DNA of 43,867 nucleotides from an uncultured Gemmiger sp. Its GTDB lineage: Bacteria; Bacillota; Clostridia; Oscillospirales; Ruminococcaceae. The stretch lies in assembly GCA_947628865.1 (NCBI GenBank), contig CANRBN010000001.1:1-43867 (forward strand), written 5' to 3'. The translations under genes and the position numbers were made by a program. Positions 1 through 41,310 of the stretch are shown piece by piece; the stretch's first letter is position 1; each line of letters starts with the position of its first letter. The notes under the pieces are model-generated. The model was not told the DNA's origin and did no database searches. It saw nothing but the letters and a program-made list of their open reading frames with translations.

Positions 1-78
1 GGCTTTCAAGATTGATCTTGGTTTTTTCTGTCTACTATCTATTGACCTTTTCAGCGAAGCCGGTGGTCCTGACTTTTG

Positions 79-1860
79 TCATGCGGCGGGCAGCTCGGTC
101 GGGCCTGAGGGCGCAACGCCGGGCGGGTAGCGGTGCTCGGCCTCAGACTGGCCCACGATATCCGTATAGATATAAGGGTCATAGGCGTGGCTATAGTTGT
201 GGGCATTGGAATACCGCATCAGCTCGACATCGGTGAGATAGAAGAACTCCGAGCCGTCCACGCGGCGCGTGGTGTCAAAGTGATACCAGCCCTCGCCGAT
301 GTTGACAAGGTTCCAGAAATGCAGCGAATCGCCGTGCGGGATCTTGGCGATATCGCGGTTTTGGATGCCGGCGTTCGTGAGCAGCAGCTTCGCCGACATC
401 GCGTAAACATAGCAGTCGCCCCGATGCTCGACAAGGCCGCGGTAGCAGGCTTCGATCCAGTTGTCCTTGTTGGAGGAATCGACATAGCCGATGTTGTCGT
501 GGCAATAGCGGTAGATCGCGTAGATGATGTCCCGCTGGCTGTAAGCATCTAGACCGTTCGGGAACAGCGCGGCCAGCGTGTCGTTTGCAGCCGCCTGCAC
601 GACATCCTCCGAGATATCCGGGGGCAGCGGCGTGATGACGTGCAGCACCGTGCTGGCCGTGGCGGTGTTGCCGGCGCTGTCGGTGACTGTGTAGATGACG
701 GGATAGCTGCCCGGTACGTTGAGGTTGACGGCGCTGTTGTCGACCTGGAGCTGCAGGTCGGTATCGCAGTTGTCGGTCACGACGATATCGCGCTTGTAGG
801 CGACCGTGCCTCCCTGCTCCACCGTGAGCTCCTGCACGCCGGATATGACCGGCGGCTCGTTATCGGGCAGGACATTGATGTTTGCCGTGATGTCGGTATG
901 GTTGCCTCCGGCATCGGTCACGCGCACGCGCACCTGCTGCAGCCCGAGGACGGAGAGCTTTGGCTCGCTGACAAAGGCGACCGTCAGGGGGGTTTTGTCC
1001 TGCATGGATTCGATCAGATCCTCCGGCTGGACGGTGCCGTTGACATAGGCCTCGATATCACGGCCCACCACCACGGGGGCGACACTGTCGACCACATGCA
1101 GAATGGCTGTCTGCTCAAAGCCGAGCACCTTGAAAACGACCTCATGGTCGCCCACGGTGTTCATGTCGATGCCGCTGTCCAGCCCGCGCACAAGCGTTGC
1201 CTCAAAGCCGCCGGAGCTGAAATCCTGCGCCGACGGCAGCGCGCTGCCGACTTCAAGGGTGAGATCCCGCACGTTCCAGGGCGCAAATCTCCACAGAACG
1301 ACAGCCAGCAGCAAAATGGAGAATGCCAGGAACAAAAACGGCAAAAGAGAGGCGCTCTTGCGCGCGCGGCGCTTGGCGTGCCCTGTTCTGCTTTTTGGCG
1401 AAGTGCTGCGGTGCTGCGCGGCCCTTTGCTGAGGGCGGTGTGCCTGCGGCGCATCATGTGCGGACGGCGCGCTGCGCCGCTGCGGAACGGCGCCGGACGG
1501 CTGCGTGCCGGCACGGCGCGGGGCCTGTGGCGCGGGCGCGGGAGCCGCCGCCGGGCGCTGCGGCGCGGCAGCGGGCTGCCTTGCAGGCTGAGGCGTTATT
1601 ACGTTGTTTCGCACAGGGGGCATCGCGCTTTGTGCGGCGTACGGCGGCTGTTGTGCGCTGTGCGCGGCAGCCAGACGCCGGCTGCGTTCCTCGGGGGTCA
1701 GAACGCGCACCTTGTGCGCGGGGGACGCCGCCTGGCGGTTTGCGGGCGGCATCTGGATCCTGCGCGCGCCGCTGCCGACCGGCTGGCCCTCGACCGCCGG
1801 TCGCTGCGGTGTATTTTGGGCGCCGCTATGCGCAGCACCGGATGCGCTGTTGATCTTCAT
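79..1860 (-). CDS. Membrane-anchored transglutaminase-like protein with Ig-like (DUF5011/HYR-like) repeats
   Basis: Pro/Ala/Gln/Arg-rich N-terminus, one TM helix (LLPFLFLAFSILLLAVVLW), repeats of the D..PP.I.G...Y.VTD.AGN type, and a putative triad GDCYVYA / HFWNLV / WYHFDTT. Start is 1860 (GGGGGA upstream) or 1872. Confidence 0.8.
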   Translation of the reverse strand: MKINSASGAAHSGAQNTPQRPAVEGQPVGSGARRIQMPPANRQAASPAHKVRVLTPEERSRRLAAAHSAQQPPYAAQSAMPPVRNNVITPQPARQPAAAPQRPAAAPAPAPQAPRRAGTQPSGAVPQRRSAPSAHDAPQAHRPQQRAAQHRSTSPKSRTGHAKRRARKSASLLPFLFLAFSILLLAVVLWRFAPWNVRDLTLEVGSALPSAQDFSSGGFEATLVRGLDSGIDMNTVGDHEVVFKVLGFEQTAILHVVDSVAPVVVGRDIEAYVNGTVQPEDLIESMQDKTPLTVAFVSEPKLSVLGLQQVRVRVTDAGGNHTDITANINVLPDNEPPVISGVQELTVEQGGTVAYKRDIVVTDNCDTDLQLQVDNSAVNLNVPGSYPVIYTVTDSAGNTATASTVLHVITPLPPDISEDVVQAAANDTLAALFPNGLDAYSQRDIIYAIYRYCHDNIGYVDSSNKDNWIEACYRGLVEHRGDCYVYAMSAKLLLTNAGIQNRDIAKIPHGDSLHFWNLVNIGEGWYHFDTTRRVDGSEFFYLTDVELMRYSNAHNYSHAYDPYIYTDIVGQSEAEHRYPPGVAPSGPTELPAA

Positions 1861-1876
1861 GTCTTCCCCCATCCCG

Positions 1877-1902
1877 CGCCCCGCGCCGTTCAGCGCGGGG
1901 CG
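1877..1902. terminator. GC-rich hairpin between asnB and the transglutaminase-like gene
   Basis: cgccccgcgc-cgttca-gcgcggggcg is a perfect 10-bp stem, with no U-tract on the minus strand. Confidence 0.4.
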
Positions 1903-1929
1903 TGCTTTCTGTACAAGGCAAAAGCTGCC

Positions 1930-3768
1930 TCAAATCGTCAGACGGTAGCGCTCGCAAAGCATCGTCACGGTCATGGCGATGAGCAGATAGTCGATCTCAT
2001 AGGCGCCCATGAGCTTGAAATCCTGTTGGCAGTAGAGGGCCTTGAGCTCGTTGATATAGCCGGCGTCAAAGATGCCCTGTTTTTTGAGGAGCGACTCGGT
2101 CAGGAACATGTTTTCGCCCGGCTGCTTGATGAGCGACGACATGCCCGGCGCCTGGAACGGGAATTTTTTGCGCTTGAGGATCTCGTTCGGCACGATGCCC
2201 TCCCCCGCTTTTTTGAGGATATACTTTTCGTTGACGCCGTTGAGCTTGTACTTGTCCGGGATGGTCACGACGAAATTGAGCAGGTCGATGTCCAAAAACG
2301 GGTGGCGCCCCTCGACCGAGTGGGAAAAGATCATGCGGTCGCCGTGCTCGCCGAGAAGATGGTCGGAAAGGCGCAGCTTGTAGTCGATATAGGAGCGCCT
2401 TTTCTGGCTGCTCAGGCCCTTGACGCGCGCGACGTTGATGGGGCTTTCGGCAAAGGCGGAGAAATGCTCGATCTCGCCGCGCACATCGGCGCTGTACAGC
2501 TTTTTGTGGATCTCGCGGATGGCGGGGTGGTTGCGCTCGTAGCGGAAATACGGGTCGCCCCACAGGCGCTCGTTGACCGCGCATTCCTCGGCGCTCATCT
2601 TGCCCTTCTGCATGTTGCGGAAGAGATCGACCATATACCCGACGTAGCCGCAGAAGAACTCGTCCGAGCCCTGCCCGGTCAGCACGGCCTTGGCCGGCGA
2701 GCCCTGTACGAGCGCCGAGAGCAGATAGGCGGCCACATCGTAGCTTTCCTTGACGGCGGATTCGGCATGGTAGATGACGTTAGGCAGGTTTTCCCAGATG
2801 CGCTGCTCGTTGATATGGGTGACGTAGTGTTCGCTTTTCACATAGTCATGGATGATCTTTTGGAAGCGGCTCTCGTCGAGATCGCCCTCCTCCATCTCGG
2901 CGGAGAAAGAATAGTAGCTGTTGAGCAGGTATTTGCCGATGTAGCAGGCGACGACGGAGCTGTCGAGCCCGCCGGAGATATAAAAGCCGATGGGCACATC
3001 GGCGATGAGCCGGCGGGAAATGGCGCTCTTGAGCAGCTCGCGCAGGCGCTCGACATAATAGGCTTCGCCCTTGTCCTCCTCCTCGGGCTGGTATTGCAGA
3101 TCCCAGTATTCGATATCGCGGGGCTCCTGGCCGGGGCGGAGCAGCAGCATATGCCCGGCCCGCAGCGAATTGACGCCGGCAAAAAACGTGTTGGGCGAGA
3201 CGACGCCGGGATAGTTCATCAGCTGGTCGACGGCCTTGAGGTTCAATTTGCGCGGCACACCGGGAAATTCAAGGATGGCCTTGATCTCGGAGCCGAACAC
3301 GACCCAGCCGTCCACATGGGTATAAAACAGCGGCGCGATGCCGATGTGATCGCGCACCAGCAGCAGCTGGCGTTGGCGCGCATCGTACAGCGCGATGGCG
3401 AACTGGCCGTTGAGGCGGTTGGGAAAATCCAGGCCCTCCTCCTCATACAGGTGCAGGATGACCTCGACGTCGGTTTTGGTGGCAAAGCGATGGCCCTTTT
3501 TCTCCAGCTCCTCGCGCAGCTCCTGAAAGTTGAAGATCTCGCCGTTGCAGATCATCACGACGCTGCCGTCCTCGTTTTGCAGCGGCTGCATACCGCCGGC
3601 AAGATCGAGGAAGCTCAGGCGGTTGAAGCCCAGCCCCAGCCCCGGCTGCAAAAGCGTGTTGCTGCCGTCGGGGCCGCGGTGCTTGATGGCATCCAGCATG
3701 CCGCCCAGCAGCGCCGGATCCTGCCTGCGCTCGCCCAGAAGATCGTAAAAACCGCAGATACCGCACAT
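1930..3768 (-). CDS. asnB: Asparagine synthase (glutamine-hydrolysing) family amidotransferase
   Basis: N-terminal MCGI Ntn nucleophile, HRGPD, NGEIFN, SGGLDSS PP-loop, TGQGSDE, R.PFLD, EKYILK. Confidence 0.93.
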   Translation of the reverse strand: MCGICGFYDLLGERRQDPALLGGMLDAIKHRGPDGSNTLLQPGLGLGFNRLSFLDLAGGMQPLQNEDGSVVMICNGEIFNFQELREELEKKGHRFATKTDVEVILHLYEEEGLDFPNRLNGQFAIALYDARQRQLLLVRDHIGIAPLFYTHVDGWVVFGSEIKAILEFPGVPRKLNLKAVDQLMNYPGVVSPNTFFAGVNSLRAGHMLLLRPGQEPRDIEYWDLQYQPEEEDKGEAYYVERLRELLKSAISRRLIADVPIGFYISGGLDSSVVACYIGKYLLNSYYSFSAEMEEGDLDESRFQKIIHDYVKSEHYVTHINEQRIWENLPNVIYHAESAVKESYDVAAYLLSALVQGSPAKAVLTGQGSDEFFCGYVGYMVDLFRNMQKGKMSAEECAVNERLWGDPYFRYERNHPAIREIHKKLYSADVRGEIEHFSAFAESPINVARVKGLSSQKRRSYIDYKLRLSDHLLGEHGDRMIFSHSVEGRHPFLDIDLLNFVVTIPDKYKLNGVNEKYILKKAGEGIVPNEILKRKKFPFQAPGMSSLIKQPGENMFLTESLLKKQGIFDAGYINELKALYCQQDFKLMGAYEIDYLLIAMTVTMLCERYRLTI

Positions 3769-3786
3769 AAAACCGTTTCCCGCCTT

Positions 3787-4323
3787 TTACAGTACAGTGG
3801 AATGATATTCGATGGAAAGCACCGTATCGCCGCTCTGCACGACGAACCACAGCTCGCTGCCACCCTTTTCGTACACGATGGTGCCCGCTTCGGCGGCTTT
3901 TTCACCGTAGGCGGCGGCCACGTCTGCGACCGGCGCGCCGATGGCAAGGCCCTCCGCGGTCTCGACCATATCGTCCTTGAGGATCACAGCCGAGATGCGG
4001 TCGGTATCGCCGTCGGGATAGGTATCGACCTCAAAGCTCGCGTAGGTGTAGATCTTGTCAAGGCCGTCGAAGGCGCAGCTGGCGGCCTCCTGATAGTCAA
4101 CGGGGTCGCCCAGCGCCGCGATGATGGGGGCCGCGTCGGCATCCATGGGGATCTCGACGCCGTTGTAGGTAAAGACATAGGCGTCCTCCGCGGCGGTCTG
4201 GCCGGCGCCGCCGTTTGCCGACGGTGTGCCGCCATTGCCGGCGTCAGACCCGCCGCAGGCGGCGAGCAGGCAGGCCGCCAACACGGTGCAGAGGATCAGG
4301 GAGAGATGCTTTTTCATGTTCAT
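3787..4323 (-). CDS. Acidic lipoprotein of unknown function
   Basis: MKK + hydrophobic stretch + LAAC lipobox, followed by a Gly/Asn linker. Overlaps the upstream gene by 4 nt. Confidence 0.8.
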   Translation of the reverse strand: MNMKKHLSLILCTVLAACLLAACGGSDAGNGGTPSANGGAGQTAAEDAYVFTYNGVEIPMDADAAPIIAALGDPVDYQEAASCAFDGLDKIYTYASFEVDTYPDGDTDRISAVILKDDMVETAEGLAIGAPVADVAAAYGEKAAEAGTIVYEKGGSELWFVVQSGDTVLSIEYHSTVL

Positions 4324-5381
4324 GCGTCCTTTCTTTCCATGCCATAGAGTTTGTATTGTGCTTCGATCTCCGCGTCATACGCGGCGATCTTGCCTTTCCA
4401 GGCGGCATCCAGCGCGGCTTCGCCGCGGCGATCCGCAAGACCGAATTCGGTTTGCAGGTAGCGCCCCAGCCAGACAGCCAGCTTTTCGGCGCCGGAGAGG
4501 TTCATGTGCAGGCCGGCATCGTAGGTGTCGGTGTTGTAATCTATGCCGGTCTCGTCCTGGATCTCCAAAAAGTTGATATACCGGCGGTCGTGGGCTTCGG
4601 CATACGCCTCGACCTGCTCCTCCCATTCGGGGTACCAGTAGGGGTACAGGCTCGGCGCCTTGATGAGCAGCAGCTCCACGCCCTTTTCGCGGCAGAGCGC
4701 GTCCATCCTGTCAAGATATTCCCAGGCCTTGTCGCCAAAGCTGTAATCGCCCAAAATGCGCCCCTGTGTTTCCGATTCGACCGGGCGCACATCCACGCGC
4801 ATATAGTACCCGTTGTGGGTGACGGGCTTTGTCTTGAACAGGTATTCAAGGTCGGTCGGCGCGAGCTCGCTCCAGCGGCTGTGGTAGCGCAGGATGGGGA
4901 AAACATAGTCGAGGAAATGTTCGTTTTCTTTCATCGAGGCGAAGATCGCGCCGACCTTGGACGGCGACCATTTCATGCCCTCGATGGACATGCGGTTGTA
5001 GGCCTCGTTCTGTGACTCGTTGAATTGCAGAGACTGGATGTTGAACACCACAACATCCGGCGTTTCATAGCGCAGCGTGTCCTCCAAAAGATAGTAGGAC
5101 TGCCAGATATACTGCTCGGCGCTGCCGCGGATATAGCTGTTGATGCCATATTCCTGCCAGAGTTTTACCGGGGAAAAGTTTTCATAGACCTCGCAGTCGC
5201 CGATGAAGATGACGTCGTGATCCTTTTCCTCCCGATAGTATTCGGCGACGAAAGCGCCCTCCACGATGCCGTCGACGTATTTGGGCATGAGCAGGCGCTG
5301 CAAAAGGTACAGGCTGCCCGCCACGATGAGCGCCGAGACCGCGATGCGCACGAACCGGCGCCGTTGATCGGCTTTTTCCAT
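4320..5381 (-). CDS. DltD/AlgJ-like SGNH-fold extracytoplasmic acyltransferase
   Basis: N-terminal TM anchor, block I-like DVIFIGDCE and C-terminal D-AGL-H-MN. Directly follows the MBOAT gene. GAGGGGAGG RBS before ATG 5381. Confidence 0.7.
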   Translation of the reverse strand: MEKADQRRRFVRIAVSALIVAGSLYLLQRLLMPKYVDGIVEGAFVAEYYREEKDHDVIFIGDCEVYENFSPVKLWQEYGINSYIRGSAEQYIWQSYYLLEDTLRYETPDVVVFNIQSLQFNESQNEAYNRMSIEGMKWSPSKVGAIFASMKENEHFLDYVFPILRYHSRWSELAPTDLEYLFKTKPVTHNGYYMRVDVRPVESETQGRILGDYSFGDKAWEYLDRMDALCREKGVELLLIKAPSLYPYWYPEWEEQVEAYAEAHDRRYINFLEIQDETGIDYNTDTYDAGLHMNLSGAEKLAVWLGRYLQTEFGLADRRGEAALDAAWKGKIAAYDAEIEAQYKLYGMERKDA

Positions 5382-5409
5382 GGCGGTGCCCTCCCCTCTT
5401 GTAAACGAT

Positions 5410-6999
5410 TCAGAAGCGGTTGTAGATGAACTGGCTGGCGTCATAGCCGATGCCGTACGCGCCCATCAGCAATACCAGCAGGAACAGCCCGTACCAAACG
5501 ATGAACCGCACCGCGTAAGGGCGTTTTGCGATCTGCGCGCGCACGCTGCCGCGCCGCCCGAGGAGGCTGACGGTCAGCATCAGCGCGACGGCGCCCGCCA
5601 GCACGGCATAGTCGACGCCGGTCAGGCCCAGCTCAAGCAGCGCGCCGTTCCACAAAATGCCCCAGTTGCGGGCGGTCAAAACGGAGCCCAGCATGAACAG
5701 CGTGTCGCCGATGTTGGCAAAGCAGTCGAACAGATTGAGGCAGCAGATCAAAAGGAACGTGCGCCCCACCGCGAACAGCCGCCAGCCGAGGCCGCCAGCG
5801 CCGGGATGCTTTGCGTGAAAGCGCGCATACAGCGGCTCCAGCTCCTCGGATATCATCAGGATGGCCCAGTTGAGCAGCCCCCAGACGATAAAGTTCCAGC
5901 TGGCGCCGTGCCAGATGCCGGTCGCGAACCAGACCACAAAGCTGGACACATACACCGGCAGCCGGCGACCGACGGCCTCGCCGAACCTTGAGCGCGAAAA
6001 CCTGGCAAAGCGCTGCATCGCTTTGGAGGAGGAGACCGGATAAAAAACGTAATCCCTAAACCAGCTGCACATCGAGATGTGCCAGCGCCGCCAGTATTCT
6101 TTGAGCGATTTGGAAAAGTAGGGGCGGATGAAGTTCTCCTGCACCGTGACACCCAGCGCCTCGGAAAGGCCGATGGTGATGTCGATGCCGCCGGTAAAAT
6201 CGGCGTAGAGCTGCACGGTATAAAACACCATGCCGACCAGCGCATACGCGCCGTGGTAGGCGTTCACATCGCCAAGGATGACCGTGACGGCGCTGACGAT
6301 GCGATCCGCCACGACGAGCTTTTTAAAATAGCCCCACAGCATGCGCTGCAAACCGCGTGCCACGGTGCCGCCGTCGTACGGATGCCCGGCGTAGAGCGTC
6401 TCGCTCAGCTGGCCAAAGCGGCTGATGGGGCCCTGGATGACCAGCGGAAAGAAAGAGACGAACAGCAAAAAGCGCGGCAGGCTGCGCTCGGCGGGCTGGC
6501 TGCCGCGGTAGACGTCGATCAGATAGCCCACGGCCTGAAAGGTATAAAACGAGATGCCCAGCGGCAGCAGGATGTGCAAAAGCGGTAGCGGCCCTTTGGA
6601 AAACAGGCCCAGCACGGCGTTGACGTTGGCGATGGCAAAATCCGTGTATTTTACAACGGCCAGGATGCCAAGATCAAGCAGCAGGCAGCCGGTGAGCCAG
6701 CGCCTGCGGATGCGCTTTTGCTGTGCGCGGTAGGCTTTTTTGCCCTCACGGTCAAGGGTGTCCTTATGGGCCTGCAGATAGGCGCTCTGCTGTGCGGCGT
6801 TTGCCTGGATGCGCAGCGCCGCGTACCAGACGCTGACGGCGGTGGCCAGGATGTAAACGATCGCCCAGGCGCCGCCAAGCAGGTAAAACACAAGACTCGC
6901 CGCCAGCAGAAGCTTCCACTGGTGGCGTTTGGGCAGAAGATAATACAGCAGCAGCAAAACCGCGGCAAAGCCGAGGAACCCATAAGAGGTGAAGAGCAT
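5410..6999 (-). CDS. MBOAT family O-acyltransferase (DltB/AlgI-like) with fused C-terminal FIYxxF motif
   Basis: MLFTS start, LPLGISFYTFQ, GPISR, ENF.RPY, WRRWHISM, catalytic TGIWHGA, C-terminal FIYNRF. Confidence 0.92.
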   Translation of the reverse strand: MLFTSYGFLGFAAVLLLLYYLLPKRHQWKLLLAASLVFYLLGGAWAIVYILATAVSVWYAALRIQANAAQQSAYLQAHKDTLDREGKKAYRAQQKRIRRRWLTGCLLLDLGILAVVKYTDFAIANVNAVLGLFSKGPLPLLHILLPLGISFYTFQAVGYLIDVYRGSQPAERSLPRFLLFVSFFPLVIQGPISRFGQLSETLYAGHPYDGGTVARGLQRMLWGYFKKLVVADRIVSAVTVILGDVNAYHGAYALVGMVFYTVQLYADFTGGIDITIGLSEALGVTVQENFIRPYFSKSLKEYWRRWHISMCSWFRDYVFYPVSSSKAMQRFARFSRSRFGEAVGRRLPVYVSSFVVWFATGIWHGASWNFIVWGLLNWAILMISEELEPLYARFHAKHPGAGGLGWRLFAVGRTFLLICCLNLFDCFANIGDTLFMLGSVLTARNWGILWNGALLELGLTGVDYAVLAGAVALMLTVSLLGRRGSVRAQIAKRPYAVRFIVWYGLFLLVLLMGAYGIGYDASQFIYNRF

Positions 7000-7024
7000 G
7001 GCAAAACTCCCGGGAAAAAGGCGG

Positions 7025-7255
7025 TCAGGCCTCGTCCTGCAATTCCTGGATGAGCGCGTACAGCGCCTTGGCGGAGTTGAAGTTGGCCGGCACGATCTTG
7101 TCCGCCGTGATGGTGACATCAAACTCCTCGCCGATCTCGGCGATCAGCGTGACGATATCGAACGAATCCAGGATTATATCGTCGATCAGGTGCTCGCGGG
7201 TGGTAAAGTCGATGTCGGGGTGAAGCTCGTTCAAAATGTGCAGCAGTTCATCCAT
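7025..7255 (-). CDS. Acyl/aminoacyl carrier protein (DltC-like)
   Basis: 76 aa, acidic, ILDSFDIV phosphopantetheine Ser motif, NFNS near the C-terminus. Confidence 0.88.
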   Translation of the reverse strand: MDELLHILNELHPDIDFTTREHLIDDIILDSFDIVTLIAEIGEEFDVTITADKIVPANFNSAKALYALIQELQDEA

Positions 7256-7277
7256 GGGTGGTCATCCTTTCCTCTGG

Positions 7278-8792
7278 TTATTTGCCTTGCGCCATGTTTT
7301 TGAGCGTGACGCGGTCGATCTTTCCGTTGGCGGTCTGCGGCAGCTTTTCGAGCCGCACAAGGCGGTTGGGCAGCATATAGCGCGGCAGCTTGCCCTTGAG
7401 CGCGGTGGTCAGCGAGGGCTCATCCGCATCGCCGACATAATAGAGTACGATCTTCTGGCGCGCATTATCATAAACGCAGGCGGACATTTGGATGCTGTCC
7501 AGCATGTCGACGTTGGCTTCGATCTCGCCCAGCTCGATGCGATGGCCCATGTGCTTGATCTGGTGGTCACGCCGGGAGACAAAGACAAGATCACCCTCGG
7601 CGTTGCGCCTGCCGATATCGCCGGTCTTGTAGATGATCTCCGGGTATGCGGTGTTGAGCGGGTTCTGCACGAACGCCTGCGCGGTGCGCTCGGGGTCGTT
7701 ATAGTACCCGAGCGTGACGGCGGTGCCGCGGATGCAGATCTCGCCCTCCTCGCCGTCGCCGGCAAGCGTGCCGTCGGCTCTGAGCAGCAGGATCTCGCGG
7801 TTTGCAAAGGGACGCCCGATGGGGATGACCTCATCGTCGGCAAAATCGCGGTCGGCACGGTACCAGCAGCACATGCCGGTGCCCTCGGTGGGGCCGTACA
7901 GATTGGTGAAGGTCGCGCTCGGCACGGCCTCGCGCCAGAGGCGGAACTGACGGATGGGAAAGACCTCGCTGCCAAAGGCCACCGTGCGCAGATACTGCGG
8001 CTTGACGGTCTTAAAGGTGCCAAGCGCGCTCACCATCGTGAGCGCCGAGACGACCCAGCAGATGGTATTGATCCTGTGTTCGTTGAGGTATTCGACCAGC
8101 GCGATGGGGAACGAGAACAGGCGCTGCGGGATGAGCCAGGTCGTCGCGCCGAACTTGATGGTGGAATACACGTCCTTGAGGCAGGCGTCAAAGTAAAGCG
8201 GCGCCTGGTTGCCAAAGACGGTATCTTCGTCAAAGGCGAGCACCTCGGACAGCTGCTCGATGTAATCGAGCACCGAGCGGTGGCAGGCCGCCACCCCCTT
8301 GGGGATGCCGGTGGAGCCGGAGGTGAAAACGATGTAGATGGGGTCGGTGTCGATGGCGGCGCGGCGGATGGCATCGAGCGCGGCACGGTCGGGCTCGGTG
8401 TGGATGAGCTCCTCGTACAGCGCGAGCTCGCCGCCCATCAGATCGAACTGGCGGGCCTTTTCGATGGTATCGGCGTCGCAGATCACGAGCGGAGATTTGA
8501 CGTTCTCCAAAATCAGGCGGATGCGGCTGTCCGGCATCTCCTCGTCGAGCGGCACATAAAAATCGCCGCCGGCAATCACGCCGAAGAACGCGGTGATCTC
8601 CATCGGTGACTTGCGCATGAACACAACGACGGGCCGCTTGCAGATGCCGCGCATGTGCAGGCAGGTGGCGATGCTTTCGGTGCGCTGCAAAACCTCGGCG
8701 AACGTCAGGGTGACGGTATCGCTGCAATAGGCCGGCTTGTCCGGCAGGCGCGCCGCCGTCGCATACAGATCATTCAAGACATTCTTGTTCAT
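7278..8792 (-). CDS. Stand-alone amino acid adenylation enzyme (DltA-like)
   Basis: A3 YIVFTSGSTGIPKG, A4 FDAC, A5 NLYGPTE, GEICIRG, YKTGD, GHRIELGEIE, A10 NGKIDR. Confidence 0.92.
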   Translation of the reverse strand: MNKNVLNDLYATAARLPDKPAYCSDTVTLTFAEVLQRTESIATCLHMRGICKRPVVVFMRKSPMEITAFFGVIAGGDFYVPLDEEMPDSRIRLILENVKSPLVICDADTIEKARQFDLMGGELALYEELIHTEPDRAALDAIRRAAIDTDPIYIVFTSGSTGIPKGVAACHRSVLDYIEQLSEVLAFDEDTVFGNQAPLYFDACLKDVYSTIKFGATTWLIPQRLFSFPIALVEYLNEHRINTICWVVSALTMVSALGTFKTVKPQYLRTVAFGSEVFPIRQFRLWREAVPSATFTNLYGPTEGTGMCCWYRADRDFADDEVIPIGRPFANREILLLRADGTLAGDGEEGEICIRGTAVTLGYYNDPERTAQAFVQNPLNTAYPEIIYKTGDIGRRNAEGDLVFVSRRDHQIKHMGHRIELGEIEANVDMLDSIQMSACVYDNARQKIVLYYVGDADEPSLTTALKGKLPRYMLPNRLVRLEKLPQTANGKIDRVTLKNMAQGK

Positions 8793-8913
8793 CGTATCTC
8801 CCCAAACCGCCGGGCAGGCCGTGCCGGCAAACATTCAAATACAGTTTGCACCGCACGGCGCGCAGCTATGCGCGGCTTCGGTTCTGCTTTTTTACACAAA
8901 AACCGACAGTAGC

Positions 8914-8942
8914 ATTATACTATCACAAACCCACAAATGCAA
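8914..8942 (-). promoter_or_regulatory. Sigma-A-type promoter for the adenylation/MBOAT operon
   Basis: TTGCAT-17 nt-TATAAT on the minus strand. Confidence 0.7.
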
Positions 8943-8978: not shown

Positions 8979-9017
8979 AAAAATGCCGCACAGCGCAAAA
9001 GCTGTGCGACATTTTTT
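8979..9017. terminator. Rho-independent terminator
   Basis: aaaaatgccgcacagc-gcaaaa-gctgtgcgacattttt stem with A/T tails, at the stop codon of the 9017-9361 ORF. Confidence 0.75.
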
Positions 9018-9361
9018 TACAAAAGCAGATCCTGCATCCCCAGCTGCTGCGTACTGCGCGCAAAAAAACCGAGCTTGAGCAGGATGGGGTACAGATAACT
9101 GGCACCGTAGCAGTCGAGCTTTTTGGGGCCGGAGATGTCCTCCCCTTTTTCCAGCAGCTCGTCGATGCGGCGCAGCGCCGCGGCGACCGTTGCGATGGTG
9201 ATGGATTTTTTCCGGCGATCCACGAACAGCTCCCCGCCGCGAACGGTGTAGGTAAAGGGCAGGCCCTTGGCGGTGACGAACGTGTCGCCGGCGTGGGCGG
9301 CGAGCAGCTGCCAGACTTCCCGCAGCCGTGCATCCCCGTTTACATAAGCGGCTCTTGGCAT
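9017..9361 (-). CDS. Hypothetical protein
   Basis: 114-aa ORF with normal codon usage and globular-looking composition (F.TAKGLPFTY...GPKKL...GASYLYP). AAGAGG RBS. Confidence 0.7.
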   Translation of the reverse strand: MPRAAYVNGDARLREVWQLLAAHAGDTFVTAKGLPFTYTVRGGELFVDRRKKSITIATVAAALRRIDELLEKGEDISGPKKLDCYGASYLYPILLKLGFFARSTQQLGMQDLLL

Positions 9362-38040: not shown

Positions 38041-38760
38041 TTATCCCAACGCTAATATTGAAAACGGGTTGTCCCACAACACCCTTTGGGCGTAGGCATC
38101 CCCCAATTTATTTTCGATCTTATGGGCACACAGGCCCAGCTCCACAGGCCGATACTCCGGCCCATGCGCATCGGAAGCCACCACATGGATCAAATCATGC
38201 TTTGCAAGCTCCCAGCAAAACAACTGTTGGCGCAGACCCTCGCGGCCCAGCAGGCTGCCGGCGTTGACCTGGATCATGGCGCCCAGCTCCCGCAGGCGGC
38301 GCACCGCGTCGATGCCCGTGCGCACGGCGGGATAGCGCTCGACATGCGCGACCAGCGGCTGATACCCTGCCGCGATGACCTTTTGCAGGCGGTGGCAGAT
38401 GATATCCAGCGTGTGACGGCCTGAAAACTCGACCAAAAGGGTCTTTCCCCTGCCCAGCGGCAGTAGCTCGCCCTGCTCGAGCAAACTCATAAAATGGGAA
38501 TCACAGTAATATTCCCGGCTCAGGCACAGGTAGATGGGCAGCTTTTGCGTGCGGATGTAATCCCGTGCCCGCTCAAATTGATGCTTGACTTCTTCGTTGC
38601 CGGACTCGAACATCCCGTGGCGCAGGTGCGGCGTCGCACATACGACGCTGATGCCCTGCCGCGTCTGCTCATTGAGCAGCTGTTCCATCTCTTCCAGATG
38701 TTCGGCACCATCGTCCACGTAGGGCAGGATATGGCAGTGGATATCCGCCAGCCTTGTCAT
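38041..38760 (-). CDS. cpsB: CpsB/CapC PHP-family tyrosine phosphatase
   Basis: DIHCHILP.VDDGA, ATPH, AHVERY, VASDAH...RP. Confidence 0.92.
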   Translation of the reverse strand: MTRLADIHCHILPYVDDGAEHLEEMEQLLNEQTRQGISVVCATPHLRHGMFESGNEEVKHQFERARDYIRTQKLPIYLCLSREYYCDSHFMSLLEQGELLPLGRGKTLLVEFSGRHTLDIICHRLQKVIAAGYQPLVAHVERYPAVRTGIDAVRRLRELGAMIQVNAGSLLGREGLRQQLFCWELAKHDLIHVVASDAHGPEYRPVELGLCAHKIENKLGDAYAQRVLWDNPFSILALG

Positions 38761-38790
38761 GCCCTGCTCCTCCCGTTTCTCCCTTCGCCA

Positions 38791-38822
38791 AAGGGGCCCC
38801 GCTTTTGGGGCGGGGTCCCCTT
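38791..38822. terminator. GC-rich hairpin after the surface-protein gene
   Basis: aaggggccccgc-ttttggg-gcggggtcccctt, with no clear U-tract. Confidence 0.5.
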
Positions 38823-38838
38823 GACTTAGGGGAATGTG

Positions 38839-39420
38839 TTACATTTCCTTTTTGCGCGCCTTGACAGCCACGATGCTGGCCAACGCGATCACGGAGATGC
38901 CGACGAACGGCACAGCCATGGGGGCGCCAGTCTGGGGCGCGGTCGGGGTGGTGCTGGGCGGGTTGGTGGCCGGCGTATCGTCGGTCTTGCCCTTCACGAC
39001 GATGAAGGCGAACGGCGAGAAAGCATCAGCGCTAAAAGTGACTTTAGAGCCAGTGCCCTGGCCGATGAATTCCCAAGCACTGCCAGTCCAGTGCAGCACG
39101 ATGACAGTGTCATTGGCCGCAACACCGGAAACCGTGAAAGTGTAGGAACCATCGGGATTGCCGATCGGCTCAATGTCCTGAACGATGACGTTGACGACCT
39201 CCTGCTTGGCGGTGTCGATCTTGCCAAGAGTAGTCAAGACCTCCGTCGCTTTCGCAACAGACTGAACCGTCTCGGTGACAGCCGTATCCGCCACTTCCTT
39301 AATCGTGACGTTATCGGGCCCCTCGAGCTGATCCGTCGAGCTGGGGCCCGCGGCAAAAGCGGGGACAGCCAGGCAAGTGGTGAGCATCAGAGCCAGCACC
39401 ATTGAGAGAACCTTTTTCAT
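38839..39420 (-). CDS. Small sortase-anchored cell wall protein (APQTG sorting signal)
   Basis: Sec signal MKKVL...AFA, Thr/Pro-rich linker, APQTG + hydrophobic helix + KARKK tail. AGAAAGGAGG RBS. Confidence 0.85.
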   Translation of the reverse strand: MKKVLSMVLALMLTTCLAVPAFAAGPSSTDQLEGPDNVTIKEVADTAVTETVQSVAKATEVLTTLGKIDTAKQEVVNVIVQDIEPIGNPDGSYTFTVSGVAANDTVIVLHWTGSAWEFIGQGTGSKVTFSADAFSPFAFIVVKGKTDDTPATNPPSTTPTAPQTGAPMAVPFVGISVIALASIVAVKARKKEM

Positions 39421-39484
39421 TGGAGTGTACCTCCTTTCTTCCAAAATTTATTCAAACGCGCTTTCGCGCGAGTGAATACACCAT

Positions 39485-40519
39485 TCAAGGGGCGGCGGTC
39501 TCGGGCTCGTAAAAGAGCTCGATGATCATCTGCTGGAGCGCTTCCTCGTCCACATGATACTCGTCATGTACAGCACCGGCCACGGTGGCCCCGGGCACCT
39601 TGAGGGTCTCCTCCTGCAGGTCATATTCCGCCAACATCTGGAGCGTTTCGGCGTCGAGATTGGTCTCGATGGAATCCCCGGCCACAGTCAGCATATGCTG
39701 CAGCGTTTCGGCCATGCCGCCCTTGGCTTTCAGTTGGGAAAACAGCTCGTGCATGAACCATGTCTCGCGCGCAAGGCGCTGCTCTGCCGAGCCGGTAACG
39801 GTGATATCTCTTGAGCGGACGAACTTTTCCGTCGCGGGGCCGTCCAGTGTGACCTGCGCGCCGGAAACATACGCCGGGTCGATGTAGGAATAATCCTCCG
39901 GGAATGTGAGCGTGATGCCGCCGAGCTCCTCGACGATGAGCGGGATGCCGTCCATCTTGAGCGCGAGGCTGCCGGTGATGGGCACGTTGTACAAAAGGCG
40001 CGATACCGTGCGTTCCATCAAAAAGCAGCTGCGGCGGTCACTGTCACCATAAATGTATTGGAGCGTGATGTGCATCGGACCCGTATAGGCGTAGTCCCCG
40101 TTGCCGCGGTAAACATCCACGTCCGTGATGGTGTCACGGGAGATGGCAAGCGTCTGCATGGTTTTGGTGCCCGTGTCGAGCAGGAACAGCATGATGGCAT
40201 CCGCGCGTCCGTTGTTGCCCGCGATCTCGCCCACGCTCTCGGTGAGATTGGCGTTGTCCACGCCGAGGAAGAGCACGGTCTTCAGATCGCGCCGGCGGCG
40301 GTAGTTTACGCCGTTGAACGTGATGGTGCTCTGCCAGTCGGCGTTATCATCCGCCGGCGGCAGGCTGACAGCGGGTTCCGAATCCGCCGGCGCAGCCGCA
40401 CCTGACGCGGGAGCAGACCCGCAGCCGGCGCAAAGACCCGCCAGCAGCAGCGCCGCAGCCAAAAGCGGAAGCACCTTCATCGCGGGCGTTCTCATCCGAC
40501 CACAGCCTGCTGATCCCAT
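39485..40519 (-). CDS. LCP (LytR-CpsA-Psr) family glycopolymer transferase, possibly a lipoprotein
   Basis: VLFLGVD, GRADAIML, ISRDT, VEELGGI, FVRSR, R..R. Hydrophobic stretch ending LCAGC. Confidence 0.88.
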   Translation of the reverse strand: MGSAGCGRMRTPAMKVLPLLAAALLLAGLCAGCGSAPASGAAAPADSEPAVSLPPADDNADWQSTITFNGVNYRRRRDLKTVLFLGVDNANLTESVGEIAGNNGRADAIMLFLLDTGTKTMQTLAISRDTITDVDVYRGNGDYAYTGPMHITLQYIYGDSDRRSCFLMERTVSRLLYNVPITGSLALKMDGIPLIVEELGGITLTFPEDYSYIDPAYVSGAQVTLDGPATEKFVRSRDITVTGSAEQRLARETWFMHELFSQLKAKGGMAETLQHMLTVAGDSIETNLDAETLQMLAEYDLQEETLKVPGATVAGAVHDEYHVDEEALQQMIIELFYEPETAAP

Positions 40520-41310
40520 GCGCTTTCCTCCTGCAGGACCCCTATGATGAGATAGCGGTGGATCACGCTGTCCGAATTTCCGGTACAGGTGGAGAGGATG
40601 AGGATCTTGTCGTCCTTCGTGACCGGCACATCCTCAACGATGTGGTTGTTGAGGTCGCGCACGGTCGAGGGCAGTGAATCCAGGAACGCCTGCCGGTTTT
40701 CCGGCGCGGAGTCATCATAATAATAAGGTATATAGGCGTTACTGTAGGTGATCGCGGCAAAGATACGGTAACGCAGCTCCTCTTCCGGCGTGTAGACGAA
40801 GATGTCGGGGTTCGCCTCCAGCACCGCGGTATCGCGGTACTGGGTCAGATTGCTGAAGAGGGTGCCATCCTCATAGTTGTGACCGTAGAGGATGGTGTGA
40901 TAGTCGGAAAAATCACCGGCATTGACAGAGGGCTCGCTGTAGATGGCGCCGTGGCGGTTGTACGCGCCCGTGATATCGTGCCGAAGATAAAAGGCGTCAT
41001 TGTCCGGGTGCTGCACCACGGGATAGGAGATATCCAGCCCCGGTATCTCGATCCAGCCGTAGATATCGGCGCATTCCTGCCAGGCCTGTTCAAAATCGAC
41101 GGGGCAGAGATGCGGCTCGGGCGTGGGGGTCGGCTCCGCGGTCGGGGCCTGTGTGGGCGCCGGCGTGGCGGTGGGCTCGGCAGTCGCCTGCAGCTCCTTA
41201 TAGACATCCGCCTCGTGCGCGGTGGTATAGAAGTAATGGATGAGAAAGCAGGCTGTAACTGCGATCACGACAAGACTGCCATAATAGACGATCTTTCTTG
41301 CGCCTTTCAA
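40492..41310 (-). CDS. srtB: Class B sortase
   Basis: N-terminal TM, GWIEIPG..I.YPVVQ..DN..FYL.H, ILYGHN..DG..F..L, LSTC, RY. Confidence 0.9.
   Translation of the reverse strand: MKGARKIVYYGSLVVIAVTACFLIHYFYTTAHEADVYKELQATAEPTATPAPTQAPTAEPTPTPEPHLCPVDFEQAWQECADIYGWIEIPGLDISYPVVQHPDNDAFYLRHDITGAYNRHGAIYSEPSVNAGDFSDYHTILYGHNYEDGTLFSNLTQYRDTAVLEANPDIFVYTPEEELRYRIFAAITYSNAYIPYYYDDSAPENRQAFLDSLPSTVRDLNNHIVEDVPVTKDDKILILSTCTGNSDSVIHRYLIIGVLQEESAWDQQAVVG

What the first reader, a model, noticed from the sequence alone, without database searches (positions are those of the whole stretch)
79..8942. Dlt-like envelope aminoacylation operon coupled to an AsnB amidotransferase and a transglutaminase-like protein
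Seen: seven co-oriented genes under one sigma-A-like promoter, with gaps under 30 bp through asnB and about 60-70 bp to the last gene. The order is adenylation enzyme, carrier protein, MBOAT, DltD/SGNH-like protein, lipoprotein, AsnB and TM-anchored transglutaminase-like protein. Known: DltA-C-B-X-D move D-Ala across the membrane onto teichoic acid, and AsnB-family paralogues amidate cell-wall substrates (mDAP, D-Asp cross-bridges). Inference: this is a parallel, non-alanine pathway that activates an acidic amino acid, amidates it (free or carrier-bound), exports it through the MBOAT and attaches it to a surface polymer or protein. The Cys-His-Asp enzyme could then use or remove the amide. I do not recognise this as a characterised system.
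Basis: partly seen in the sequence, partly recalled or inferred. Interest (0 to 1): 0.88.

Follow-up and report, generated by a model that had tools for sequence, protein, structure and literature searches.

The report
Dlt-like operon with extracellular cysteine relay
This seven-gene operon, whose core recurs in about one in ten sampled Clostridia genomes, resembles the machinery that puts D-alanine on Gram-positive cell walls, but it likely exports D-aspartate (here probably converted to D-asparagine) and is predicted to pass it along three conserved cysteines outside the cell to form an amide on an unknown wall target, a route my literature searches did not find.

Summary
All seven genes, their order and gaps are confirmed, and the promoter is conserved in the closest relative. 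No part passes a Dlt cut-off. The core (adenylation enzyme, carrier, MBOAT with fused FxYxxF shuttle, SGNH, lipoprotein, transglutaminase-like enzyme) is tightly linked: lipoprotein in 65 and transglutaminase in 66 of 67 complete clusters, in shuffled orders, with 11 fusions. The SGNH nucleophile is Cys (126 of 127), the lipoprotein has one invariant Cys (64 of 64) and the transglutaminase keeps Cys-His-Asp. An Asp/Glu-family racemase lies in 44 of 67 clusters (here elsewhere in the genome), which with pocket Lys points to D-Asp. AsnB is an accessory of one subclade (3 of 67); the pocket code is the same with or without it. The lipoprotein plus transglutaminase pair also sits on a true dlt operon and on AlgI/AlgX-type loci, where an L,D-transpeptidase sometimes stands in. 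Best reading: an extracellular thioester relay ending in amide formation; acceptor unknown, nothing assayed. The scan noted this family before on other genomes.

The parts
8914..8942 (-). sigma-A-type promoter, TTGCAT-N17-TATAAT
   Evidence: read; same hexamers and spacing upstream of the orthologue in L031; not listed by the scan
7278..8792 (-). stand-alone amino-acid adenylation enzyme; pocket code DAKCAGLGMK (D202, A203, K206 ...); likely activates D-Asp
   Evidence: TIGR01733 321.5 > 317.4; DltA models below cut-off; code in 107 of 123 close relatives
7025..7255 (-). carrier protein, phosphopantetheine site LDS (Ser31)
   Evidence: PF00550 above cut-off; DltC model 26.6 vs 68; DS conserved
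5410..6999 (-). MBOAT with catalytic His364 (WHG) and fused C-terminal acyl-shuttle hexapeptide FIYNRF (Tyr526)
   Evidence: PF03062; G.WHG in 128 of 128 and F.Y..F in 123 of 128 relatives; positions
4320..5381 (-). membrane-anchored SGNH-fold transferase with Cys63 in place of the Ser nucleophile (G-D-C; Gly86, Asn114, Asp288/His292)
   Evidence: model pLDDT 87.9; SGNH fold, DltD 7dxm Z 10.9, rmsd 5.0, 239 aligned; GDC in 126 of 127
3787..4323 (-). lipoprotein (lipobox Cys23) with a tandem BLIP-like fold and one invariant Cys83 in a beta-hairpin loop; predicted extracellular acyl carrier
   Evidence: Cys in 64 of 64 aligned; model pLDDT 95.6; fold matches 4ifa Z 11.5, YfeY Z 10.2, DUF4309 Z 10.1; fused to the SGNH in 9 loci
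1930..3768 (-). glutamine-dependent AsnB-family amidotransferase, accessory; Ntn Cys2, PP-loop SGGLDS, GQGSDE where E. coli AsnB has GEGSDE
   Evidence: TIGR01536 438 > 267, E. coli-type NF006949 304 < 499; alignment; linkage
1875..1904 (.). 12-pair GC-rich hairpin between asnB and the last gene; T-run only on the + strand
79..1872 (-). transglutaminase-like enzyme: Pro/Ala-rich N-terminus, one TM (175-193), Ig-like stalk, Cys487-His518-Asp533; predicted terminal amide-forming transferase
   Evidence: PF01841 and PF16403 above cut-off; triad invariant in 71 of 71 aligned, motif in 141 of 148; fused to the SGNH in 2 loci

Best explanation
The operon likely encodes a Dlt-like aminoacyl export line that is predicted to end in an extracellular three-cysteine thioester relay, which would attach D-aspartate (probably amidated to D-asparagine in this subclade) as an amide to an unknown cell-envelope amine. 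Steps: (1) a two-Cys racemase (in the cluster in 44 of 67 relatives; at C24:3678-4388 in this genome) would supply D-Asp [inferred]; (2) the adenylation enzyme would load it on the carrier's phosphopantetheine [family knowledge; substrate inferred]; (3) AsnB would amidate the side chain, most likely on the carrier, since the pocket code is unchanged in AsnB clusters [inferred]; (4) MBOAT His364 would move the acyl group to Tyr526 of its own FxYxxF tail [shown for PatA and DltX, inferred here]; (5) SGNH Cys63 would take it as a thioester, hand it to lipoprotein Cys83, and on to transglutaminase Cys487 [residues shown conserved; transfers inferred]; (6) the transglutaminase, held away from the membrane on an Ig stalk, would transfer it to an amine; a peptidoglycan amine is my first guess, a surface protein or amino sugar the next [inferred]. 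Rough odds per step: export relay 0.9, D-Asp 0.65, amide-forming Cys relay 0.55, AsnB acting on the carrier 0.45, peptidoglycan as acceptor 0.35.
For: Linkage from three independent anchors: 67 complete clusters hold lipoprotein 65, transglutaminase 66; 39 lipoprotein-anchored loci hold Cys-SGNH 36, transglutaminase 35, close A domain 31; 40 of 42 top SGNH hits in a 399-genome class sample have a lipoprotein hit on the same contig within about 5 kb. Gene order is shuffled, even inverted; fusions SGNH+lipoprotein 9, SGNH+transglutaminase 2. Cys at the SGNH block-I position in 126 of 127; Ser in 14 of 15 SGNH of the distant sister loci (one fragment), and 0 of those 17 loci hold lipoprotein, transglutaminase or racemase. 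The lipoprotein Cys has no conserved partner Cys and lies in a hairpin loop. The pair is portable: in L301 it precedes a true dltA/B/D set (542.8 > 476, 453.8 > 375, 307.4 > 150); with AlgI/AlgX-type genes it comes with a transglutaminase (L191, L204, L208, L305, L309), and in L207, L209, L212 the lipoprotein sits beside a YkuD L,D-transpeptidase instead, another Cys acyl-enzyme that makes amides (established knowledge). Precedent for transglutaminases making amides from carrier-bound acyl groups: AdmF and CtaJ (PMC7898593, passages). Racemase: TIGR00035 207.6 > 93.1. Racemase + AsnB-family amidase is the D-Asp/D-Asn trio of lactic acid bacteria (PMC4155827, passages). Nearest AsnB relatives (41-49%) sit by NRPS genes in 6 of 11 metagenome loci and next to a stand-alone carrier in G736.
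Against: No enzyme was assayed and no product is known. Five near-complete genomes of one genus keep Cys-SGNH, lipoprotein and arrays of up to six transglutaminases with no close A domain in the genome. G638 (100% complete) has racemase, A, carrier, MBOAT and Cys-SGNH but no lipoprotein or transglutaminase hit. Where the pair sits with AlgX-type or DltD enzymes these keep Ser, so a Cys SGNH is not required, and five such loci (L196, L198, L200, L206, L213) show no transglutaminase or YkuD among the ORFs tested. Three weak Cys-bearing lipoprotein homologues (L214, L218, L220) have no MBOAT or transglutaminase nearby. The racemase scores 188.7 against a cut-off of 190 for cysteate racemase CuyB, so cysteate or Glu is not excluded. 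23 of 67 clusters, and this one, lack the racemase. AsnB linkage is essentially one evolutionary event. BLIP-like folds include immunity proteins.
Confidence: 0.48

Rival explanations
1. The Cys-SGNH is the last transferase, as DltD and PatB are, and makes an ester or amide directly on a wall polymer; the lipoprotein is a redox guard or inhibitor of the catalytic cysteines and the transglutaminase-like enzyme is a remover (deacylase or protease).
For: G638 keeps the Cys-SGNH line with neither partner; five genomes keep the outside trio with no close loader; lipoprotein fold relatives include immunity proteins RhsI1 (Z 6.1) and BtiO (Z 4.2); the nearest solved transglutaminase-like sequences include a putative cysteine protease (4u65).
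Against: The lipoprotein Cys is kept beside Ser-type AlgX and DltD enzymes that have no Cys nucleophile to guard; the pair follows three unrelated MBOAT systems; a YkuD enzyme takes the transglutaminase's place in three loci; fusions put SGNH on one chain with either partner.
Confidence: 0.25
2. Same export line and relay, but the cargo is another anionic amino acid (D-Glu or D-cysteate) or the L-form, and AsnB supplies a free amino acid or amidates a separate wall substrate such as mDAP.
For: Racemase is borderline for CuyB cysteate racemase; Lys at pocket position 239 is recalled from Glu-activating domains (memory, not tested); the DltA Cys that selects the D-form (PMC8972799, passages) is Gly here and Cys in only 4 of 83 close relatives; racemase absent from 23 of 67 clusters.
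Against: Racemase passes the aspartate-racemase-type model and scores only 28 bits on glutamate racemase models; a sulfonate offers AsnB no carboxylate to amidate (chemistry); racemase and AsnB share the cluster in 10 of 21 cases; this AsnB's relatives are NRPS-linked.
Confidence: 0.17
3. The cluster makes a secreted or lipid-linked small molecule (an N-acyl or lipid-aminoacyl product) rather than modifying a wall polymer.
For: AsnB's nearest outside relatives lie in NRPS clusters; the proven thiotemplated transglutaminases make small molecules (PMC7898593).
Against: FxYxxF tail plus SGNH partner is the mark of polymer-acylating MBOATs (PMC12148441, passages); relatives' transglutaminases carry SLH, choline-binding, G5 and fn3 domains; no condensation, thioesterase or exporter family was among the commonest neighbours.
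Confidence: 0.08

Closest known systems
Dlt pathway (DltA, DltC, DltB, DltX, DltD), D-alanylation of teichoic acids
   Same: Stand-alone adenylation enzyme, carrier protein, MBOAT with catalytic His, FxYxxF Tyr shuttle, membrane-anchored SGNH-fold transferase (mechanism from PMC12148441 passages).
   Different: All parts below Dlt cut-offs; shuttle fused to the MBOAT, no DltX; SGNH has Cys, not Ser; pocket has Lys; extra lipoprotein, transglutaminase, racemase (in relatives) and AsnB.
MBOAT-SGNH O-acetylation pairs (PatA/PatB, AlgI/AlgJ/AlgX, PatA1/PatB1)
   Same: Long MBOAT with C-terminal hexapeptide and a separate SGNH partner.
   Different: PMC12148441 (passages) says these lack a carrier protein and use acyl-CoA and a Ser intermediate to make O-esters; this system has a carrier, a Cys nucleophile and two further Cys proteins.
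Thiotemplated transglutaminases AdmF (andrimid) and CtaJ, and papain-like ligase CtaG (closthioamide)
   Same: Cys-His-Asp enzyme placed to take an acyl group from a carrier and form an amide (PMC7898593 passages; PMC12865890 abstract).
   Different: Those act in small-molecule assembly with phosphopantetheinyl carriers; this one is membrane-anchored with an Ig stalk behind an MBOAT, and the predicted donor is a lipoprotein Cys. Homology to them was not tested.
RacD / AslA / AsnH D-Asp and D-Asn cross-bridge pathway of lactic acid bacteria
   Same: Aspartate-racemase-type enzyme plus AsnB-family amidotransferase (PMC4155827 passages).
   Different: No ATP-grasp ligase among the seven genes; activation is by adenylation and carrier, followed by export; AsnH acts after ligation to the precursor.

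Membership tests
Dlt pathway | DltA orthologue above curated cut-off | tested here: not met
   NF003417 271.5 vs 476; TIGR01734 264 vs 559.85
Dlt pathway | DltB and DltC orthologues above cut-off | tested here: not met
   TIGR04091 149.1 vs 375; NF003464 26.6 vs 68
Dlt pathway | separate DltX microprotein carrying the shuttle Tyr | tested here: not met
   motif is the MBOAT's own C-terminus; intergenic gaps are 57 bp or less
Dlt pathway | DltD with Ser nucleophile | tested here: not met
   no TIGR04092 hit; block-I residue is Cys
Dlt pathway | D-Ala ester on teichoic acid | not testable with these tools
   needs wall chemistry
MBOAT-SGNH acyl-shuttle systems | MBOAT catalytic His and C-terminal FxYxxF | tested here: met
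   128 of 128 and 123 of 128
MBOAT-SGNH acyl-shuttle systems | adjacent membrane-anchored SGNH-fold protein | tested here: met
   model matches SGNH enzymes, Z 10.9-13.0; TM 13-31
MBOAT-SGNH acyl-shuttle systems | Ser acyl-enzyme | tested here: not met
   Cys in 126 of 127
Transglutaminase-like superfamily (PF01841) | profile match and Cys-His-Asp triad | tested here: met
   34.8 bits vs 23; C487/H518/D533 invariant in 71 rows
Thiotemplated transglutaminases (AdmF/CtaJ) | amide formation from a carrier-bound acyl group | not testable with these tools
   needs assay
Asparagine synthetase B, broad family (TIGR01536) | Ntn Cys, PP-loop, score above cut-off | tested here: met
   438.2 vs 267.1; Cys2 and SGGLDS
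E. coli-type asparagine synthetase B (free L-Asp) | equivalog score and the Glu of GEGSDE | tested here: not met
   NF006949 304.4 vs 499; Gln at that site in 30 of 31; best solved match is hydroxyamidotransferase 7ylz
RacD/AslA/AsnH pathway | ATP-grasp D-Asp ligase in the operon | tested here: not met
   none among the seven genes; the rest of the genome was not searched for it
Exosortase A / PEP-CTERM EPS cassette | TIGR03098 ligase and TIGR03108 amidotransferase above cut-off | tested here: not met
   212.9 vs 592.35; 385.1 vs 816.9

The most novel reading that the evidence does not exclude
The small Cys lipoprotein is a new class of extracytoplasmic acyl carrier protein: a portable adaptor that takes acyl or aminoacyl groups from unrelated MBOAT systems (this D-Asp line, AlgI/AlgX acetyl lines, a true dlt operon) and delivers them as thioesters to transglutaminase-like or L,D-transpeptidase enzymes in the wall. 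That would be thiotemplated amide synthesis outside the cell, giving gut Clostridia an undescribed D-Asp/D-Asn (or acetyl, D-Ala) N-acylation of peptidoglycan or surface proteins, possibly a post-export route to D-Asx cross-bridges.
Probability: 0.35. Interest if true: 0.92.

Novelty: new variant of a known kind. Interest (0 to 1): 0.77.

Why it matters
The characterised MBOAT-SGNH lines described in the papers I read end in a Ser acyl-enzyme and an O-ester. A line that ends in a protein-cysteine carrier and an amide-forming enzyme would extend Dlt-type logic to stable N-acylation outside the cell. The core is in 42-44 of 399 sampled Clostridia genomes, gut and rumen lineages whose wall chemistry is largely blank in a recent review table (PMC11382707, passage). 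It predicts a specific, searchable mass tag (+115.027 Asp, or +114.043 Asn in AsnB carriers such as this one) on muropeptides or surface proteins, which could bear on lysozyme, phage and NOD sensing of commensals (inference).

Tried and rejected
Complex prediction of the transglutaminase domain with the lipoprotein gave no answer (score 0.02, mark 0.32). No RNA holder was listed for the region. The profile search of protein representatives with the SGNH alignment was still queued when I stopped, so the range of Cys-SGNH outside Bacillota is untested; the ESM Atlas gave no answer. A ~470-aa 'asnB' hit beside clusters of one genus looked like a second, independent AsnB link; Pfam shows GATase plus phosphoribosyltransferase (PurF-like) for the one member scanned, so I dropped it. 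A disulfide between SGNH Cys63 and the second conserved Cys230 was set aside because that Cys also occurs in 7 of 15 Ser-type relatives. Pocket conservation could be an artefact of the A-domain search patterns; it holds in 36 of 40 loci found by other anchors. PDB sequence searches found nothing significant for the lipoprotein or SGNH profiles. A search for longer lipoprotein fusions returned only 5 proteins (weak). A YkuD-family gene flanks 11 core clusters, in mixed orientation and few lineages, so I give it little weight. Literature: searches returned 0 papers; searches returned no description of this system (one search's one hit, PMC12419801, was checked by passages and is unrelated). Subscription papers are not covered; the Dlt mechanism paper and the AsnB Glu348 paper were not held, so the role of that Glu is recalled only. 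Supplements were not read; genome-neighbourhood tables in them could mention this cluster.
Full report
Observation. The seven ORFs are real, co-oriented on the minus strand and in the stated order, with gaps of 22, 25, 28, -4, 18 and 57 bp. A TTGCAT-N17-TATAAT site at 8942..8914 falls under the scan's threshold but is repeated with the same hexamers and spacing in the closest relative, L031. A GC hairpin at 1875-1904 precedes the last gene; its T-run is on the other strand. The genome (86.75% complete) has one copy of the adenylation enzyme, carrier and lipoprotein, and paralogues of the MBOAT, SGNH, AsnB and transglutaminase.

Not Dlt. The adenylation enzyme, carrier and MBOAT all score far below the DltA, DltC and DltB cut-offs. 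The MBOAT is the long type, with His364 and its own C-terminal FIYNRF; G.WHG is in 128 of 128 and F.Y..F in 123 of 128 relatives. PMC12148441 (passages) shows this hexapeptide's Tyr is the acyl shuttle in PatA and DltX, and says the MBOAT-SGNH pairs other than Dlt lack a carrier protein; this system has both a fused shuttle and a carrier.

What travels together. I fetched 80 loci by the adenylation enzyme (the best 80 of 257, so biased to close relatives), 20 from the window's family, 60 by the lipoprotein and 54 by AsnB (the 31 best analysed). Of 67 clusters with a close A domain, a Cys-SGNH and at least 1.5 kb of sequence on both sides, AsnB-anchored loci left out, 65 hold the lipoprotein, 66 the transglutaminase, 44 a racemase and 3 AsnB. 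Of 39 loci anchored on a strong lipoprotein hit, 36 hold the Cys-SGNH, 35 a transglutaminase and 31 a close A domain. In an even sample of the class, 44 of 399 genomes have the SGNH at E <= 1e-60, and 40 of the 42 strongest have a lipoprotein hit on the same contig within about 5 kb (my comparison); the exceptions are one contig edge and G638. Orders are shuffled and sometimes inverted. The SGNH is fused to the lipoprotein domain in 9 loci and to the transglutaminase in 2. These genomes are related, so the counts are not independent trials, but named carriers include Oscillospiraceae, Lachnospiraceae, Eubacteriaceae, Clostridiaceae and Erysipelotrichaceae.

Three cysteines. The fourth gene has no sequence match, but its model (pLDDT 87.9) has the SGNH fold (DltD 7dxm Z 10.9, rmsd 5.0, 239 aligned; best Z 13.0), with G-D-C at the end of strand 1, Gly86, Asn114 and Asp288/His292 at the usual block positions. 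The nucleophile site is Cys in 126 of 127 close relatives (the other is cut by a contig end) and Ser in 14 of 15 from the distant sister loci (one fragment); none of those 17 loci holds a lipoprotein, transglutaminase or racemase hit; two intermediate Ser-type clusters also lack them. The lipoprotein domain has a single conserved Cys, in 64 of 64 rows, in a loop between two strands of a confident model (pLDDT 95.6) whose fold matches 4ifa (Z 11.5, rmsd 2.5, 115 aligned), YfeY and DUF4309. The transglutaminase keeps Cys487-His518-Asp533 (motif in 141 of 148) behind one TM helix and Ig-like domains.

A portable module. Weaker lipoprotein homologues that keep the Cys sit on other MBOAT systems. 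L301 has lipoprotein, then an SLH-bearing transglutaminase, then dltA, dltB, a carrier, dltD (all three scored genes pass a cut-off) and a DltX-like 52-aa ORF. With AlgI-type MBOATs and AlgX/DHHW enzymes (Ser-type in the five printed) a transglutaminase is adjacent in L191, L204, L208, L305 and L309; in L207, L209 and L212 the lipoprotein sits beside a YkuD L,D-transpeptidase with SLH or SH3 domains; L196, L198, L200, L206 and L213 show neither among the ORFs tested. Eight weak homologues without the Ser-Cys motif have no MBOAT or transglutaminase nearby, but neither do three weak Cys-bearing ones. Both terminal enzyme types form Cys acyl-enzymes resolved by amines (established knowledge); for transglutaminases acting on carrier-bound acyl groups see AdmF and CtaJ (PMC7898593, passages). 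This is the main reason to read the three cysteines as a relay ending in an amide.

Cargo. The ten-residue pocket code, placed by motif homology to NRPS domains, is DAKCAGLGMK in 20 of 21 AsnB clusters, 87 of 102 without AsnB, and 36 of 40 loci found without using the A domain. Asp at the first position indicates an alpha-amino acid and Lys at the third an anionic side chain (the latter recalled from Glu-activating domains, not tested). Earlier scan notes pointed me to a racemase; clustering neighbours found it in 79 loci. It passes TIGR00035 (207.6 vs 93.1), falls just short of cysteate racemase CuyB (188.7 vs 190) and scores 28 bits on glutamate racemase models. This window lacks it; the genome has a homologue at C24:3678-4388 with both Cys motifs (243 bits, against 262-371 for cluster copies). 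D-Asp is the best guess; D-Glu and cysteate remain open. The Cys that selects the D-form in DltA (PMC8972799, passages) is Gly here.

AsnB. It is accessory but not accidental. Twenty of 21 AsnB-linked A domains fall in one clade of 25 (FastTree support 0.967), the other nearby. In 47 genomes whose cluster lacks it, no orthologue was found (best 45% in one genome, 30-35% in eleven; completeness not given). Of 20 orthologues at 64-82% identity, 18 adjoin a cluster gene and 2 have almost no upstream flank; 11 relatives at 41-49% have no cluster gene and 6 of them adjoin NRPS-type genes; in G736 one follows a stand-alone carrier gene. It has Gln where E. coli AsnB has Glu (30 of 31). Since the A pocket does not change, amidation after loading is the simpler reading (inference). 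Racemase with an AsnB-family enzyme parallels RacD/AsnH (PMC4155827, passages).

Against. Nothing here is assayed. Five genomes of one genus (97-99% complete) keep SGNH, lipoprotein and up to six transglutaminases with no close A domain, and G638 has the export half without the pair; either fits a remover or guard role as well. Transfer from a Ser ester to a thiol, as the AlgX and DltD cases would need, is uphill unless the lipoprotein takes the acyl group from the Tyr ester directly (inference; L212 shows no SGNH among the ORFs scanned). The acceptor is unknown.

Novelty. Ten literature searches found no description (open-access library only). The scan itself has noted the family, the racemase, the Cys-SGNH and the AsnB variant on other genomes; the portability of the lipoprotein-transglutaminase pair, the true dlt case and the YkuD substitution do not appear in the few lines of those notes that I saw. 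Verdict: a real, conserved, uncharacterised variant of MBOAT-SGNH/Dlt logic; interest 0.77; best mechanism 0.48.

Noticed in passing
L243 (G000:C25:294-5361): A transglutaminase paralogue, 53% identical to the window's, overlaps the end of a vanS-like / VanG-like ligase (443.8 vs cut-off 495) / VanT catalytic-subunit (477.1 vs 460) operon; a cell-wall context for this enzyme family.
   Followed up: partly
L301 (G955:C39): True dltA-dltB-carrier-dltD-dltX-like operon led by the Cys lipoprotein and an SLH/choline-binding transglutaminase, among SLH proteins.
   Followed up: yes
L187, L189, L201, L202, L210 (one genus): Cys-SGNH and lipoprotein with arrays of 3-6 transglutaminase genes and no MBOAT, carrier or A domain at the locus; no close A domain in the genomes. 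Acyl donor unexplained.
   Followed up: partly
L114-L130: Sister A/carrier/MBOAT/Ser-SGNH clusters with other pocket codes (DVK.., IAR.. and SM.. types, the last two lacking the amino-binding Asp), 11 beside a LysA-like decarboxylase; further uncharacterised envelope acylation systems.
   Followed up: partly
window 1-77: The 77 bases directly after the transglutaminase stop are 100% identical to C3:139-215 of the same genome; a repeat or mobile-element end at the contig break.
   Followed up: partly
L237-L238 (G736:C1): NRPS cluster with two AsnB-type genes, stand-alone carriers, a DegT aminotransferase, FkbM methyltransferase and hydroxyacyl dehydrogenase; unassigned product.
   Followed up: no
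L244 (G000:C35:10371-13288): A second MBOAT plus Ser-type SGNH pair (GSS) in the same genome, 28-32% identical to the window's; five further MBOAT paralogues and a fragment elsewhere.
   Followed up: no
window 38041-41310: CpsB/CapC, LytR-CpsA-Psr and sortase genes about 30 kb from the operon; probably unrelated. The rest of the scanned window is housekeeping and spoIIIA genes.
   Followed up: no
window 9017-9361 (+): 114-aa ORF divergent from the operon promoter with no Pfam or NCBIfam match.
   Followed up: no
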